A stretch of 64,000 nt of DNA from a virus (lineage: Duplodnaviria; Heunggongvirae; Uroviricota; Caudoviricetes): IMG/VR virus record IMGVR_UViG_3300045988_156524; one strand, written 5' to 3'. Of the stretch, positions 2,295-38,650 are shown piece after piece. The translations under genes were made by a program, and so were the position numbers. Below the pieces are notes generated by a model that was not told the DNA's origin, did not search any database, and saw only the letters and a program-made list of their open reading frames with translations. Positions within the stretch are counted from its first letter, which is position 1. Each line of letters starts with the position of its first letter.

Positions 2295-2734
2295 TTGGCT
2301 GGGGTGTATGCGTTCTTGCGTTAGCCTTAGCCGATCGCTATTTGCTAAAACGCAAGGACATCACGCATTTAGAACTTGGTGATGTGGAAATTAAACCGGG
2401 TTTCATCCGGGTGCCGTTCAAATACCGGTCTAAATTCCCGTTTTTGCGCGGCGCAACGGTCAGATATTGGATCCGCGATGTTCAGAAGCCGACGACAGTG
2501 ATTGAAGGCGAACAACGTTGTTTGACGTCGGCTGAACAGGGCGAAAACAGTGAATGGTTGTACATACCCACTGAATATATGGGTAAAGGAGAGCGACTGT
2601 GGCATTTCAACGTCATGGTTACGCATGGCGACTCGTTCATTAACCCGTTGTATCGGATTTTCCCTGTTACTCAGCAAATCCGCAGAAGTTACGTAATAAA
2701 TCTCGCACAGGATGTGTCAGATGACGAAAAATAA
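2291..2734 (+). CDS. lydB: Antiholin-like protein (147 aa)
   Basis: ATG overlaps the holin stop; GGGAGG RBS; synteny with P1 lydA-lydB (from memory). Confidence 0.45.
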   Translation: MIGWGVCVLALALADRYLLKRKDITHLELGDVEIKPGFIRVPFKYRSKFPFLRGATVRYWIRDVQKPTTVIEGEQRCLTSAEQGENSEWLYIPTEYMGKGERLWHFNVMVTHGDSFINPLYRIFPVTQQIRRSYVINLAQDVSDDEK

Positions 2735-3323
2735 GTATGCAACGGTCGATTTTGACCAGGTTAATGAAAAGGGGCTGAAATCCCTTATCGCGGCGATCAA
2801 TAAAACCGGTGTTACGGTAATTGAGGTTGACTCCAGCAACCGCGCAACAACGAAAGATGGCGTTAAAGTTAAAACCGCAAAGCTGGTTCTTAACGACGGA
2901 CAAATTCTTGCCATACAGGTAAACGATACTGGCGATATATCGTCTGTGAGGCTGAATGGAAAAGCTATTCCTAACGCTCAGTCGCCGGATATCAAGACGC
3001 TTGGTACCGTCATGGGGCAAGCGGCCCGCAAAAACTCCGCAAAATTCCAGAAATCACTGATCGCCAAAGCGAAACGTGTTGCCAATCCGGTAGACAAGAA
3101 ACCGGCAGTAAAATCCAACTTTCAGCGCCTGCAAGAGGCAAAACAGCGGAATGCTCAGGTGGTTGCCGCTTATAAATCAGCGCAGAACTCGGTGTCTTTC
3201 AATCAACAGCAGATCACTGATTTGCGGGCGAAGCTGGATAAGGAGACAGGCCGACTCAATAACGAAAAGGCCCGAAATGGCGAACTCAAACGCCGTCTTA
3301 AGCAACTGAAAGCAGGAAATTAA
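2712..3323 (+). CDS. hdf: DarA-related protein (203 aa)
   Basis: Shares the KNSAKFQ segment and coiled-coil tail with the next gene; synteny. Confidence 0.5.
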   Translation: MCQMTKNKYATVDFDQVNEKGLKSLIAAINKTGVTVIEVDSSNRATTKDGVKVKTAKLVLNDGQILAIQVNDTGDISSVRLNGKAIPNAQSPDIKTLGTVMGQAARKNSAKFQKSLIAKAKRVANPVDKKPAVKSNFQRLQEAKQRNAQVVAAYKSAQNSVSFNQQQITDLRAKLDKETGRLNNEKARNGELKRRLKQLKAGN

Positions 3324-3324
3324 C

Positions 3325-5244
3325 ATGGAACAGTTCAATATCAATAAAGGGGTGACGATCAAGCCTGGGCTTGACGTGCTTCCCCCGCCAGTGACTGATG
3401 ATGAATATCGCGCATTAATGGCCGGTGAGGACCGCTATCTGATGACGGAATCCAACACCCTGGAGGAAATCGAGGCTACGTTCTTCTATGACACGCCGAT
3501 CCACTGGTGTGCTACGGATTTACTGGAGGCGATTAGTTCTACTCGTTTGCAGTTACACCGGACCATGCAGGCATTTGTCCGGGCATTGAACCAGAAGCTG
3601 AATGGTACCGGAATCTCTGCGGGGAGTGATAAAACGGGGGATGTGGCCCAGAGCGGCGCGCGCGCGATCGGCGGTGCTGAAATTGGCCGGGCACGTAACG
3701 TTAACGGGCTGCCGGTCCTGCCAGCCATTATTCCGCTCAGTGATGGTCAGACTATCAGCATTCTGTTTCATAGCCCGACAGCGGAAAACCGGATCACCAA
3801 TAGCGATACGCTGGTTGCTTTCCAGTTCTTACTGAATAAAAAAGACGTTACTCACACCGTTGCTCCGATGAGTGGACGTGATATGACGCTGGCGCAGGTC
3901 ACCATGAAACTTGCCAACCTTGCAGAGAAAAACTCGGCAAAATTTCAGCGTGCGCAGAAGAAGAAAAAAGCCCTTGTTGATGAAATAACCCAACTACAGG
4001 CTGACAGTGACCAGAAAGAGGATGCCATGAGCGACCTCGTGGATCAGGTGGCAGCGGTAGAAGGGCAGAAGGTAGATCTGGAGCAGAAAATTAACGCTGT
4101 TGCATCGGAAGCGGATTCTCTTTATGAAGAGAATGAGCGTTTGCAGACGGAGATTGATCAGCTCAATCGCACTGGTGGGCGCGATACCATTGCTCCTGCG
4201 GGGATGACTGGTGGACACTCTCGCGCGATGACGGATCGCCTTGCCAGTATCAAAAATCGTATGCATATGAACGGGGAAGTGACGCTCAGTAATGGTGCAT
4301 CAATGAAGCAATTCATTGAGGACGGCGAAGGGTATATCCAGTTAACCGATTCGGATGGCAGCGTGTACATGATCAAGGCTAAATCCATACAGGGTGTGGA
4401 CATGGCAGATGCGATCGGCAAGCTGTTTAAAGCCTATAAAGCGGGTAATGTATCGGAATACCTGGTCCAACCAGAAGAACATAAACCGGAAAACGTCGAA
4501 CCTGAACCAGCGGAGGATACCGGTAGCTCTTCGCCTGAACCAGAAGTCTCTGTAGGTGCATATCGATATGCCCTGCAAATGCGTCCGGCGGCCCCTGGCG
4601 CAATACCTGAAGGTAACAAAGCAATTCTGCCGCGCCCTGATGAAGGTGACCCGTATTATGAATATGCACGCTACGGCATTGCTACTTACGATACCCCGCT
4701 TTCTGATCAGCAAATGAGTGAGTACGACCTGAAGTTATTGCCTCGCGAGGATTCTTTCGACTTCCTGGCGAAGACACTTACTAATGGTCCGTTTGGCAAA
4801 TATGCACAAAAAGCTCTGGAGCTGGCCACCAGCTCACCAGACGAGTTCCGCGTAATGCTGAAAACTCAGTTTCAAAAAACTTTCCCCAATATTGCGTTTC
4901 CGGGGGGCGCTGGCACCGAGAAAATGGTGCAGAGCATGATCAATGCATTGCAGGCCGAAGTCGGTGAGATTACTCAGCCAGAACCTGCCCCGGCACAGCC
5001 TGATGAAACGGTTAGCGAAGCAGATGCAGAGGCTAATAAAGCCATTGAATATCTCAATAACGTGATGGATATGCAAAGCACTGACATGGCGGAGATCCGT
5101 AACGCCCGGGGTAATGTCCGGGAAGCGATTGCAGCCCTTCAGGCTGCCGGGCGTTTTGAGGAAAACGAAGAGCTGGTTAATGGCGCTGCTCGCCACTTGG
5201 CTGATCTGCTGGTAGCAATCCAGAAAGCGGGGGTAGCGGCATGA
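3325..5244 (+). CDS. darA: Head-internal antirestriction protein DarA-like (639 aa)
   Basis: ATG 3325 with AGGAAA RBS; size and operon position match P1 darA as I recall it. Confidence 0.55.
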   Translation: MEQFNINKGVTIKPGLDVLPPPVTDDEYRALMAGEDRYLMTESNTLEEIEATFFYDTPIHWCATDLLEAISSTRLQLHRTMQAFVRALNQKLNGTGISAGSDKTGDVAQSGARAIGGAEIGRARNVNGLPVLPAIIPLSDGQTISILFHSPTAENRITNSDTLVAFQFLLNKKDVTHTVAPMSGRDMTLAQVTMKLANLAEKNSAKFQRAQKKKKALVDEITQLQADSDQKEDAMSDLVDQVAAVEGQKVDLEQKINAVASEADSLYEENERLQTEIDQLNRTGGRDTIAPAGMTGGHSRAMTDRLASIKNRMHMNGEVTLSNGASMKQFIEDGEGYIQLTDSDGSVYMIKAKSIQGVDMADAIGKLFKAYKAGNVSEYLVQPEEHKPENVEPEPAEDTGSSSPEPEVSVGAYRYALQMRPAAPGAIPEGNKAILPRPDEGDPYYEYARYGIATYDTPLSDQQMSEYDLKLLPREDSFDFLAKTLTNGPFGKYAQKALELATSSPDEFRVMLKTQFQKTFPNIAFPGGAGTEKMVQSMINALQAEVGEITQPEPAPAQPDETVSEADAEANKAIEYLNNVMDMQSTDMAEIRNARGNVREAIAALQAAGRFEENEELVNGAARHLADLLVAIQKAGVAA

Positions 5245-37212: not shown

Positions 37213-38074
37213 TCTATACAGGCATGTATAACAACAATGAGCCTATTAGCTGTCAACAACGTTATTTTCTCAAATAAGAAAAAGCAGAAAACAAATTGTT
37301 TAAGGTCACAAATTGTGGCCTTGATGGAGGAGGGAGGCTTATTGGCTATGGCTAAAAATCAAATTAGACACTTCATGTTGCTGTAGCTCATCAAGATCCG
37401 AGGCCACAAAACCTTTTCCGAAAAACTTCACAAGTAACTCACTAGCCGCATCATTGTCACCTATTACACGAAAGTCATACGGCAACGTCGCAAGCTGACG
37501 ATGTAATCCTGCTGAGAAAGTCGAATCTAACAGCGCCCAGAATTCCCACCGCAGGATAATACTCGCCTCTTAATACTGTATATATGTTGTTACGATATGT
37601 TTTTCTGTCTCTAAAAAAAGATGTTAATAGAATGCTAACCATTGAAGGGGATAAAAATATACAATTCCAACAAACGTTATTTTTAACAATTTTTTTCTTT
37701 GCGTTGACTTTCCCGGACACCTTGTCTGACCGAAGGTGCGCGAAAGCCACTTTTTCCTTCCTGAGTTATCCACAAAGTTATGCACTTGCAAGAGGGCCAT
37801 TTTCTACATATTGTGGTGGCTAACAGATGAAATGAATGTAGATTAATTGAAGATAAGGAGAAAATTTGAGATGCAATCATGACGTTAATAGATAGGGTCT
37901 GCATTACAGACCCCACCTGCATCAAGGAATTAGCCGTTCCCTGATGTTTTTCCGAAAACATGTGCCGTAAGCTCACGTTAACGACTTTCATTCACCGAAT
38001 CCAACTATATAGGGGTTGGGTTTCTACGTCAACGTGAGCAAGTGCACCTTTACATTTGACAAGGAACCACCTGA

Positions 38075-38212
38075 ATGAACGCTTTTTTTCAGTTCCTGAG
38101 TGCATTTTTAGATGCGCCTATTATTAGCCAGATTCTGGCTATTATCCTCATCATCGTTTTGATTTTGCTTTTAAGGTCAGTAAAAAATGGAATTATGCAC
38201 TGGCTTACTTAA
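38075..38212 (+). CDS. Small hydrophobic peptide, 45 aa (MNAFFQFLSAFLDAPIISQILAIILIIVLILLLRSVKNGIMHWLT)
   Basis: ATG with AAGGAACC RBS; single TM helix; followed by a short hairpin; below the track size cut-off. Confidence 0.4.
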   Translation: MNAFFQFLSAFLDAPIISQILAIILIIVLILLLRSVKNGIMHWLT

Positions 38213-38287
38213 TGTTTCAGTGAAACATTAAAATCTCCTTGATGTGGAAACAATCATTTTCTGTATGTGCTGGTGGGCACCTGTAGT

Positions 38288-38650
38288 TCAGCTTTCGTTG
38301 ACATTTAACTTCGTCTTTGCTTTCTCCACCAGCAACTTCCAGATGCCTATTTCATTAGCAGCCGCCTTGATGGCGGCATAAAAAGCATCTTGCTGATCGT
38401 AACGCTGGATCTGTTTTTTCAGTTTTGCCTCCACCAATTTAATTTCATTACGTGCTTTCTGAAGCCGCATCACCGCCCGGTTACGTCTGTTCTTGTATAG
38501 CGTGTTAATCTCTGACAATTGTTTTAATTTACCAGCCTGACTGCGGATTATCGCCTCCCTGGCTTCTGCCGTGCGTCTCATCTGATCTCTTAAGAGTTCA
38601 CCGTTTTCGATAATTCTTTCAAGGTGTTTGATGTGATCTGCAACTCTCAT
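38288..38650 (-). CDS. Hypothetical coiled-coil protein (120 aa)
   Basis: ORF in tightly packed leftward operon. Confidence 0.45.
   Translation of the reverse strand: MRVADHIKHLERIIENGELLRDQMRRTAEAREAIIRSQAGKLKQLSEINTLYKNRRNRAVMRLQKARNEIKLVEAKLKKQIQRYDQQDAFYAAIKAAANEIGIWKLLVEKAKTKLNVNES

What the first reader, a model, noticed from the sequence alone, without database searches (positions are those of the whole stretch)
38075..38212. Unannotated 45-aa single-TM peptide gene at the edge of an 860-bp noncoding stretch
The ORF MNAFFQFLSAFLDAPIISQILAIILIIVLILLLRSVKNGIMHWLT has an ATG, an AAGGAACC ribosome-binding site and a downstream hairpin. It is too short to appear in the ORF track. Small hydrophobic peptides like this are typical of type I toxins, holin-like factors or membrane-targeting exclusion proteins.
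Basis: seen in the sequence. Interest (0 to 1): 0.5.

Follow-up and report, generated by a model that had tools for sequence, protein, structure and literature searches.

The report
Small membrane-peptide gene in phage P1
A 45-codon reading frame for a single-helix membrane peptide in a P1/P7-type phage-plasmid is probably a real gene, missed in the reference P1 annotation, sitting about 250 bases downstream of a promoter copied from the host's nrdA gene; what the peptide does is untested.

Summary
The ORF at 38075-38212 (+) is there as described, with ATG, an AAGGAA Shine-Dalgarno 8 nt upstream, and a palindrome after the stop. The window is a P1/P7/SJ46-type phage-plasmid. The ORF lies between pmgV and the lxr/humD/phd-doc cluster.

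An ORF of this size is not unusual here. What raises it above chance is conservation. Two alleles exist, 76% identical in DNA and 58% in protein. Both have 45 codons with the same start, stop and SD core, and replacements are mostly conservative. The opposite-strand ORFs annotated in P1 (upfM, upfN) are broken in the second allele.

A 130-bp copy of the E. coli nrdA upstream region, with two DnaA boxes, -35 and a 17-nt spacer, points at the ORF from about 254 nt upstream. The stretch between them is the best-conserved part of the locus. It also holds a near-consensus convergent promoter on the other strand.

No protein or RNA family matches. The "downstream hairpin" is not a terminator. SJ46 and RefSeq already list the ORF as a hypothetical protein.

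The type I toxin reading is possible but untested. The holin reading is unlikely. Verdict: a probable small membrane-protein gene, a new member of a known kind, of moderate interest.

The parts
37676..37804 (+). Copy of the E. coli nrdA upstream regulatory region, the 'nrdA-like promoter' of GenBank M95666
   Evidence: It is 94.6% identical over 130 bp to the region just upstream of nrdA in E. coli K-12. The same segment is present in P1 (82%), the clade B allele (77%) and phage Cyrano (82%). M95666 annotates it as a promoter on the strand that equals window +.
37766..37786 (+). Two DnaA boxes, TTATCCACA (37766-37774) and TTATGCACT (37778-37786)
   Evidence: Read. They are invariant in the window, P1, clade B and E. 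coli. M95666 and the P1 record annotate them as dnaA boxes.
37786..37814 (+). Predicted sigma-70 promoter: -35 TTGCAA, 17-nt spacer, -10 TATTGT; inferred start near 37821
   Evidence: It aligns position for position with E. coli nrdA TTGCAA-17-TATCTT. It matches only 8 of 12 consensus positions, so the generic scan did not list it. The transcription start is inferred, not shown.
37821..38074 (+). Inferred 254-nt leader; its core 37846-38040 is the best-conserved part of the locus
   Evidence: The core is 87-97% identical between the two alleles in 30-nt windows, against about 70% inside the ORF. The region folds better than shuffles on both strands. No Rfam match.
37854..37882 (+). Strong SD (TAAGGAG) followed by a mini-ORF: ATG CAA TCA TGA here, ATG TAA in clade B
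   Evidence: Read. The SD and ATG are invariant in 15 variants. Function unknown.
37895..37913 (.). Hairpin GGGTCTG-CATTA-CAGACCC
   Evidence: One compensatory change, U-A to C-G, in clade B. This is neutral as to strand.
37971..38039 (.). 13-nt inverted repeat, GCTCACGTTAACG / CGTCAACGTGAGC, enclosing an inner hairpin
   Evidence: I7, 92% complementary. Nearly invariant in all variants.
38004..38032 (-). Convergent near-consensus promoter TTGACG-17-TATAGT, the 'PupfN' of the P1 record; its transcript would be antisense to the leader
   Evidence: It is the best promoter-like site in the region at 10 of 12. It is predicted, not mapped, in the P1 record. Both hexamers are invariant in both alleles. 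No terminator-like site follows on the minus strand. In P1 and clade B it points towards hot.
38061..38066 (+). Shine-Dalgarno AAGGAA, 8 nt before the ATG
   Evidence: Clade B has GAGGAT at the same spacing. The AGGA core and the ATG are kept in an otherwise poorly conserved stretch of about 65% identity.
38075..38212 (+). 45-codon ORF for a single-pass membrane peptide
   Evidence: Sequence and frame. Distribution. Conservation. Substitution pattern. Predicted structure.
38209..38231 (.).
   Evidence: I10. It has no U-run and is not called a terminator. It is only partly kept in clade B.
38288..38650 (-). pmgV homologue, the convergent neighbour
   Evidence: Unless terminated, its transcript would run antisense across the small ORF (inference).

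Best explanation
The ORF is a real but uncharacterised gene of P1-family phage-plasmids. It encodes a 45-residue inner-membrane peptide with a short amphipathic N-terminal helix, a break at Asp13-Ala14 just before Pro15, one transmembrane helix and a basic C-terminal tail. By the positive-inside rule the tail would sit in the cytoplasm.

It is most likely transcribed by host sigma-70 RNA polymerase from a captured copy of the E. coli nrdA promoter, which carries two DnaA boxes. Its expression would then follow the host's replication status in the prophage (plasmid) state. The mRNA would carry a conserved leader of about 254 nt.

A conserved convergent promoter inside that leader fires the other way, towards hot in P1. 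The two transcripts would overlap by about 175 nt, so they probably hold each other down by antisense pairing or transcriptional interference.

Shown here:
- the ORF and its conservation;
- the promoter homology and its orientation;
- the conservation of the leader;
- the presence of the convergent promoter motif.

Inferred:
- that either promoter fires;
- that the ORF is translated;
- the membrane topology.

The peptide's action is a guess. The most probable activity is that of a membrane-acting, growth-slowing peptide in the manner of stress-induced type I toxins such as TisB and DinQ. I put this sub-claim at about 0.25. The stated confidence refers to 'translated small membrane-protein gene served by the nrdA-type promoter'.
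For: ORF conservation:
- Two alleles differ at 33 of 138 nt, yet both have 45 codons with the same ATG and stop.
- All 73 related loci fetched keep a 45-codon frame.
- The AGGA core and its 8-nt spacing are kept where flanking DNA is about 65% identical.
- dN/dS is 0.41 overall and 0.20 for codons 1-23. Eight codons differ only synonymously. The replacements are mostly I/V/L/F and R/K.
- Within the P1-type allele two further changes are synonymous, GCT to GCG and ATT to ATC.
- In simulation, the frame is kept in 11% of runs and frame plus hydrophobicity in 1.8%.
- The rival opposite-strand ORFs upfM and upfN are broken by stops or frameshift in the second allele.

Independent gene calls:
- SJ46 and PGAP both call the ORF.

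Promoter:
- The nrdA-type promoter is oriented towards the ORF. It is 94.6% identical to E. coli over 130 bp, and the DnaA boxes, -35 and 17-nt spacer align.
- No other conserved ORF lies between promoter and ORF.

Leader:
- It is 87-97% conserved.
- It is structured, with z = -2.6 on the plus strand and -4.1 on the minus strand.
- The convergent 10-of-12 promoter is invariant.

Peptide:
- AlphaFold2 predicts helix 2-12 and helix 15-44 at pLDDT 90.
- The hydrophobic moment is 0.49 for residues 2-13. Mean hydrophobicity is 1.0 for residues 16-33.
Against: - No expression data of any kind were available.
- Each statistical signal is weak on its own. The synonymous excess has P = 0.13 and the conservative-replacement test P = 0.06. 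With only two alleles there is essentially one independent comparison.
- The promoter matches only 8 of 12 consensus positions, and its -10 differs from that of nrdA.
- No terminator closes the transcript.
- The RBS hairpin and the 3' stem are not conserved or not unusually stable.
- Disrupted alleles exist. There is a T7-to-T6 frameshift in vB_EcoM-813R1 and an IS1 insertion at codon 41 in pNord122_1. Frameshifted versions also appear in public assemblies. Some of these may be sequencing errors.
- In P1 the upfM-upfO interval that overlaps this locus is listed as non-essential for lytic growth in the deletion survey cited by PMC10695390.
- The family is confined to P1-like plasmids of Escherichia, Salmonella and Shigella.
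Confidence: 0.55

Rival explanations
1. The frame is not translated. The region is a two-way regulatory spacer between pmgV and hot. The minus-strand promoters and their leader serve hot. The nrdA-like promoter makes a non-coding antisense RNA, or merely binds DnaA, to tune hot. The 45-codon frame survives by chance in T-rich sequence.
For: - The leader, not the ORF, is the most conserved element.
- The leader folds at least as well on the minus strand.
- In P1 and clade B the convergent promoter points at hot, the Pol III theta homologue, for which control by DnaA boxes would make sense.
- ORFs of this size are common in the region.
- Frame survival by chance is 11%.
- In phage Cyrano a homologous nrdA-like promoter is followed after about 70 nt by a strong terminator, so there it appears to make only a short RNA.
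- Disrupted ORF alleles exist.
Against: - The frame, ATG, SD core, stop and transmembrane hydrophobicity are all kept at 24% DNA divergence. The joint simulation gives 1.8%.
- dN/dS is 0.2 in the N-terminal half.
- No other frame on either strand is open in both alleles.
- The locus is kept intact in the P7/SJ46/window lineage, which has lost hot.
Confidence: 0.25
2. It is a true type I toxin-antitoxin addiction module. The peptide is a membrane-depolarising toxin. The minus-strand promoter at 38032-38004 makes an unstable antisense RNA against the toxin leader. Loss of the plasmid prophage frees the stable toxin mRNA and kills or arrests the cell, alongside phd-doc.
For: - The peptide is small and hydrophobic with a basic tail.
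- The leader is long and conserved and contains a strong SD with a mini-ORF.
- The convergent near-consensus promoter lies inside the leader, where sok lies relative to hok (the hok/sok layout is from my own knowledge).
- The antisense region folds with z = -4.4.
- The setting is a plasmid prophage with another addiction module about 2.7 kb away.
Against: - No match to any toxin family or antitoxin RNA family.
- No terminator defines a discrete small RNA.
- The antisense transcript would not cover the toxin's own RBS.
- RBS sequestration is not conserved.
- No long-range 5'-3' pairing was established.
- Toxicity is untested.
Confidence: 0.15
3. It is a holin-like lysis factor or a superinfection-exclusion membrane protein acting in the phage's lytic or defence programme.
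For: It is a single transmembrane helix with a charged C-terminus. Phage genomes often carry small membrane proteins of these kinds (general knowledge).
Against: - It is not in a lysis cassette. Its neighbours are pmgV, lxr, humD and phd-doc.
- No late (Lpa) promoter or C1 operator is annotated in front of it on its strand.
- There is no PHROG or PADLOC match.
- It is shorter than typical holins.
- The overlapping P1 interval is listed as non-essential for lytic growth.
- The promoter is of a host housekeeping type.
Confidence: 0.05

Closest known systems
tisB/istR-1 and dinQ/agrB of E. coli (stress-induced type I toxin loci; from my own knowledge)
   Same: Each has a small single-helix inner-membrane peptide behind a long leader. 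Each has a promoter tied to DNA-replication or DNA-damage status. Each has an oppositely oriented RNA gene acting on the leader rather than on the toxin's own RBS.
   Different: There is no sequence similarity. The control here would be by DnaA boxes of nrdA type, not LexA. The peptide is longer, 45 aa against 27-29. The antisense partner has no terminator and may simply be the hot mRNA. Toxicity is unknown.
hok/sok-type plasmid addiction loci (from my own knowledge)
   Same: The host element is a plasmid. There is a hydrophobic peptide of about 50 aa. An antisense promoter sits inside the mRNA leader. A ribosome-binding site with a leader reading frame lies upstream of the toxin ORF.
   Different: There is no Hok/Gef family match. 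The leader mini-ORF (3 codons, or start-stop) does not overlap the 45-aa ORF, so mok-like coupling is not possible. No fold-back pairing was shown.
E. coli nrdAB promoter
   Same: 130 bp are 94.6% identical, including both DnaA boxes, -35 TTGCAA and the 17-nt spacer, in the same orientation relative to the downstream gene.
   Different: The -10 differs (TATTGT against TATCTT). Everything downstream is unrelated. The cargo is a 45-aa peptide instead of ribonucleotide reductase.
P1 ORFs upfM, upfN and upfO (reference annotation NC_005856)
   Same: They occupy the same DNA interval. upfM overlaps the first 31 nt of the ORF on the opposite strand.
   Different: They lie on the opposite strand. upfM and upfN are not conserved as frames in the second allele. 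They are probably not genes.

Membership tests
Known type I toxin protein families (Hok/Gef, Ldr, TisB, Ibs, ShoB, Fst and others, as far as they are modelled in Pfam and NCBIfam) | Significant match to the family profile | tested here: not met
   Pfam gave only ASFV_J13L at E = 0.25. NCBIfam gave only irrelevant hits at E of 0.027 or worse, far below their cut-offs. An exhaustive phmmer search of 1.84 billion representatives found only frameshifted copies of the ORF itself.
Type I toxin-antitoxin system (generic) | Small hydrophobic peptide ORF with one transmembrane helix | tested here: met
   45 aa. The Kyte-Doolittle 19-residue maximum is 3.1, and 2.6 in clade B. AlphaFold2 predicts helix 15-44.
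Type I toxin-antitoxin system (generic) | Antisense RNA gene with its own promoter and a defined end, complementary to the toxin mRNA | tested here: inconclusive
   A conserved 10-of-12 promoter on the minus strand at 38032-38004 would give a transcript complementary to the leader. No terminator-like site follows. In P1 it may be the hot promoter. No antitoxin RNA family matches in Rfam.
Type I toxin-antitoxin system (generic) | Toxicity of the peptide and its neutralisation by the RNA | not testable with these tools
   This needs inducible expression and promoter mutants.
Holins | Location in a lysis cassette next to an endolysin, under late control | tested here: not met
   The neighbours are pmgV, lxr/upf93.6, humD and phd-doc. 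There is no holin PHROG match.
   The palindrome at 38209-38231 is A+T-rich and is followed by AAAATCTCC. The scan does not call it. The 3' region has z = -0.49.
nrdA-type, DnaA-box-regulated sigma-70 promoter | Two DnaA boxes abutting the -35, then -35 and -10 hexamers 17 nt apart, oriented towards the gene | tested here: met
   The alignment with E. coli K-12 shows this. The orientation agrees with the M95666 annotation. Promoter activity itself was not tested.
Protein-coding gene (generic) | Frame, start and RBS conserved, with purifying selection | tested here: met
   Frame, ATG, stop and the AGGA core are kept in both alleles. dN/dS is 0.41, and 0.20 for codons 1-23. Statistical support is modest because there are only two alleles.

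The most novel reading that the evidence does not exclude
P1-family phage-plasmids carry a switch that senses host replication status. A promoter stolen from the host nrdA gene, controlled by DnaA, drives a membrane-active 45-aa peptide. A convergent promoter inside the shared 175-nt conserved leader drives the Pol III theta homologue hot. The two outputs would exclude each other by antisense or transcriptional interference. This would be a type I toxin-like module of a new family, wired to DnaA rather than to LexA.
Probability: 0.15. Interest if true: 0.65.

Novelty: new member of a known kind. Interest (0 to 1): 0.4.

Why it matters
P1 is one of the most heavily used and best annotated phages. 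Even so, its reference record places three doubtful ORFs on one strand of this interval and omits the one frame that is conserved, which lies on the other strand.

If the peptide is made, P1-like plasmids would carry a host-promoter-driven membrane peptide. These plasmids are common carriers of resistance genes in E. coli and Salmonella. The peptide's output would track DnaA and replication status. It could affect lysogen growth, persistence or plasmid maintenance.

The hypothesis is cheap to test. At minimum, the result argues for correcting the annotation of the pmgV-hot interval.

Tried and rejected
- Family searches (Pfam, NCBIfam, PHROGs, PADLOC, Rfam at E up to 1) gave no meaningful match. 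The one Rfam line, BsrG at 16.9 bits against a cut-off of 55 and E = 0.68, is chance.
- Searches for more distant relatives found only the same two alleles or nothing. These were the word-indexed protein search, exhaustive phmmer, GTDB genomes, IMG/VR, metagenomes and distant-mode blastn of plasmids. Covariation and selection tests therefore have little power.
- I tested whether substitutions compatible with G-U pairing favour the plus-strand RNA. Folding the alignment on both strands showed no difference, so I dropped that argument.
- RBS sequestration by a local hairpin is present in the window but not in clade B and not beyond shuffles. Rejected as a conserved feature.
- The 21-codon leader ORF (37879-37944) and the 25-codon ORF (37960-38037) stay open in both alleles. 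Their few differences are almost all non-synonymous and the second has no SD, so I do not count them as genes.
- Direct repeats between the nrdA-like segment and the ORF (D1, D2, D7) are not conserved in clade B and are treated as chance.
- A weak tblastn hit elsewhere in the window (4230-4316, minus strand) lies antisense inside a 639-aa gene and is spurious.
- Literature searches for the peptide sequence, its accessions or this locus found nothing. The two P1vir RNA-seq papers do not mention this interval. Lobocka 2004 and Chikova and Schaaper 2007 are not held in the library.

Full report
**What the window is.** The region around the finding is 99.5% identical to P1-like phage-plasmids of the P7/SJ46 type and about 96% identical to the reference P1. 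The neighbours confirm this. On one side lie phd-doc, humD and the lxr homologue with its partner ORF. On the other side lie pmgV and pmgT/U. The finding sits in the interval that the P1 reference record fills with three small ORFs of unknown function, upfM, upfN and upfO. All three are on the strand opposite to the finding.

**The observation.**
- AAGGAA lies at 38061-38066, 8 nt before the ATG.
- A perfect 11+1+11 palindrome overlaps the stop codon at 38209-38231.
- The palindrome is A+T-rich, has no U-run and is not called a terminator.
- The 3' region folds no better than shuffled sequence (z = -0.49).

An ATG-ORF of this size is not remarkable in itself. The 1,075-bp interval has six of them, against 1.4 in shuffles. 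The ORF is absent from the P1 and P7 records. It is annotated as a hypothetical protein in phage SJ46 (J46_0085) and by PGAP (WP_000123562.1).

**Is it a gene?** The peptide is found only in P1-like plasmids and phages of Escherichia, Salmonella and Shigella.
- It occurs in 216 plasmid records, 13 phage records, 54 IMG/VR contigs and 19 metagenome contigs.
- A scan of one genome per GTDB species found nothing.
- An exhaustive phmmer search of 1.84 billion representatives found only frameshifted copies of the ORF itself.

Only two alleles exist.
- Clade A is the window/P7/SJ46 form, together with the P1 form that differs at N2T and I16V.
- Clade B is MIVFFQFLSAFLNAPVLSQVLAIVFIVVLIWFFKSVINRGVRWLI. 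It is found where a type I restriction-modification operon replaces pmgV downstream.

The two alleles differ at 33 of 138 nt. Both have 45 codons with the same ATG and the same stop. The AGGA core of the ribosome-binding site is kept at the same spacing, in a stretch that is otherwise only about 65% identical.

Substitution pattern:
- Eight codons differ only synonymously.
- The 19 replacements are mostly I/V/L/F and R/K.
- dN/dS is 0.41 overall, 0.20 for codons 1-23 and 0.72 for codons 24-45.

Simulated random substitution keeps the frame in 11% of runs, and the frame plus transmembrane hydrophobicity in 1.8%. The separate tests for synonymous excess (P = 0.13) and for conservative replacement (P = 0.06) are weak. 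No other frame on either strand is open in both alleles. The annotated upfM and upfN frames are interrupted in clade B.

Against a gene, disrupted copies exist. There is a T7-to-T6 frameshift in vB_EcoM-813R1 and an IS1 insertion at codon 41 in pNord122_1. Some frameshifted copies may be assembly errors. I put the probability of a translated gene at about 0.7.

**The peptide.** AlphaFold2, run on the single sequence, gives helix 2-12, a break at Asp13-Ala14 (just before Pro15), and helix 15-44 at mean pLDDT 90.
- Residues 2-13 are amphipathic, with a hydrophobic moment of 0.49.
- Residues 16-33 are strongly hydrophobic.
- The tail carries the only basic residues. By the positive-inside rule this places the C-terminus in the cytoplasm. 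That is an inference.
- Residues 4-23 are 80% identical between alleles (16 of 20). The rest of the peptide is much less conserved.
- No Pfam, NCBIfam, PHROG or PADLOC family matches.

**What drives it.** This is the main addition to the finding. Window 37676-37804 is 94.6% identical over 130 bp to the DNA just upstream of nrdA in E. coli K-12. The matching segment contains:
- two DnaA boxes, TTATCCACA at 37766-37774 and TTATGCACT at 37778-37786;
- the -35 hexamer TTGCAA at 37786-37791;
- a 17-nt spacer leading to TATTGT at 37809-37814, where E. coli has TATCTT.

The boxes and the -35 are invariant in the window, P1, clade B and E. coli. The orientation matches that in E. coli, where the promoter reads into nrdA. 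Here it reads towards the 45-aa ORF. The 1993 GenBank record M95666 already labels the element 'nrdA-like promoter' with a dnaA box on that strand. The P1 genome record notes the similarity of the DnaA-box region to E. coli DNA. Neither record names a gene for the promoter. The 45-aa ORF is the only conserved frame downstream of it. The inferred transcription start is near 37821, which would give a 254-nt leader. None of this is shown by expression data.

**The leader.** Between the two alleles the core of the leader (37846-38040) is 87-97% identical. The ORF is about 70-76% identical, and homology ends at about 38290. The leader contains:
- a strong TAAGGAG followed by a mini-ORF, three codons here and ATG-TAA in clade B;
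- a hairpin at 37895-37913 with one compensatory change;
- a second hairpin at 37920-37946;
- a 13-nt inverted repeat at 37971-38039.

Inside that repeat, on the minus strand, lies the best promoter-like site of the region, TTGACG-17-TATAGT at 38032-38004, matching 10 of 12 positions. It is the predicted 'PupfN' of the P1 record, and both hexamers are invariant. It is convergent with the nrdA-type promoter, so the two transcripts would overlap by about 175 nt.

In P1 and clade B the minus-strand transcript would run on to hot, the Pol III theta homologue. The window lineage has lost hot. In its place it carries a remnant of another gene.

The leader folds better than shuffles on both strands: z = -3.3 for the 431-nt plus strand, -4.4 for the 168-nt minus strand, and -2.6 against -4.1 for the core. 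Covariation cannot tell the strands apart. The window's RBS-sequestering hairpin is not kept in clade B. Rfam has no match.

**How it most likely works.** I commit to the following model. The ORF is a small inner-membrane peptide gene. It is transcribed from a host-derived, DnaA-responsive promoter in the prophage state. Its output is limited by convergent transcription through the conserved leader.

The layout resembles stress-induced type I toxin loci such as tisB/istR-1 and dinQ/agrB, and plasmid hok/sok. The shared features are a small hydrophobic peptide, a long leader, an opposed promoter within the leader, a plasmid host and a second addiction module nearby. That resemblance is one of architecture only.

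Sequence membership in any known toxin family was tested and not met. A discrete antisense RNA could not be established. Toxicity cannot be tested here.

| Reading | Probability |
|---|---|
| Translated gene served by the nrdA-type promoter | 0.55 |
| Frame not translated, two-way regulatory spacer | 0.25 |
| Holin or exclusion protein | 0.05 |

A toxin-like action of the peptide is about 0.25, and a full type I toxin-antitoxin addiction module is about 0.15.

**Known or new.** The ORF already exists in databases as a hypothetical protein. The promoter was noted in 1993. No paper in the searchable library mentions the peptide, its accessions or a function for this interval. The overlapping P1 interval is listed as non-essential for lytic growth, and the interval is one of the variable regions of P1-like plasmids.

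What is new here:
- the link between promoter, leader and ORF;
- the evidence that the conserved frame is on the strand opposite to the reference annotation;
- the two-allele comparison.

I rate it a new member of a known kind, a small phage- or plasmid-encoded membrane peptide, of moderate interest.

Noticed in passing
L062 (phage Cyrano OV696614) 2440-3240: A different phage-plasmid lineage has the same slot next to its humD-like gene. The slot holds a LexA box and an nrdA-like promoter with two DnaA boxes (TTGCAT-17-TATCTT). About 70 nt further on lies a strong bidirectional terminator, so the promoter may make an RNA of about 80 nt. There is also a 27-aa ORF, MVNLLFKIVPPMFAIIKAIIEYVNQRP, with an SD and its own terminator, which looks like a type I toxin. 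A 16-nt direct repeat, TAAGTATCTGGCGACT, occurs at 2839 and 3011.
   Followed up: partly
window 37342-37539 (-): This is a remnant of the C-terminal 66 residues of a 174-aa hypothetical protein of phage PhiR41_1, 88% identical with E = 9e-38. Part of the '860-bp noncoding stretch' is therefore a truncated gene sitting where P1 has hot.
   Followed up: yes
window 37992-38105 (-) and 37683-37991 (-): The P1/P7 reference ORFs upfM (upf91.3) and upfN/upf91.4 are not conserved as reading frames. Clade B has stops and a frameshift, and the ATG of upf91.4 is AAG in P1 and clade B. They are probably not genes.
   Followed up: yes
window 37676-37804: The nrdA upstream segment is much closer to E. coli in the window lineage (94.6%) than in P1 (82%) or clade B (77%). 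This suggests a recent exchange or gene conversion with the host chromosome in the P7/SJ46 lineage.
   Followed up: partly
L003 (CP057418) 2501-4733: The divergent allele of the peptide always sits upstream of a type I restriction-modification operon (hsdM, hsdS) that replaces pmgV and pmgT/U. Homology to the window ends about 80 nt after the ORF. The ORF thus lies at a recombination boundary between modules.
   Followed up: partly
window about 37467; L002 (P7) 1444-2500: P7 carries IS903 inserted in the non-coding stretch, upstream of the nrdA-like segment. pNord122_1 carries IS1 inside the 3' end of the ORF. The interval evidently tolerates insertions.
   Followed up: no
window 37879-37944 (+): A 21-codon frame in the leader, MTLIDRVCITDPTCIKELAVP, is open with the same stop in both alleles. 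Seven of its eight nucleotide differences change the amino acid, so it does not look coding. It starts by ATGA overlap with the 3-codon mini-ORF that follows the strong SD.
   Followed up: partly
cluster of the clade B peptide: The exact clade B peptide is recorded on 43 contigs, the longest being 5.7 Mb. It may therefore also occur in a chromosome or in an unresolved assembly. Among complete E. coli genomes, 108 genomes hold a place covering at least 80% of the query.
   Followed up: no
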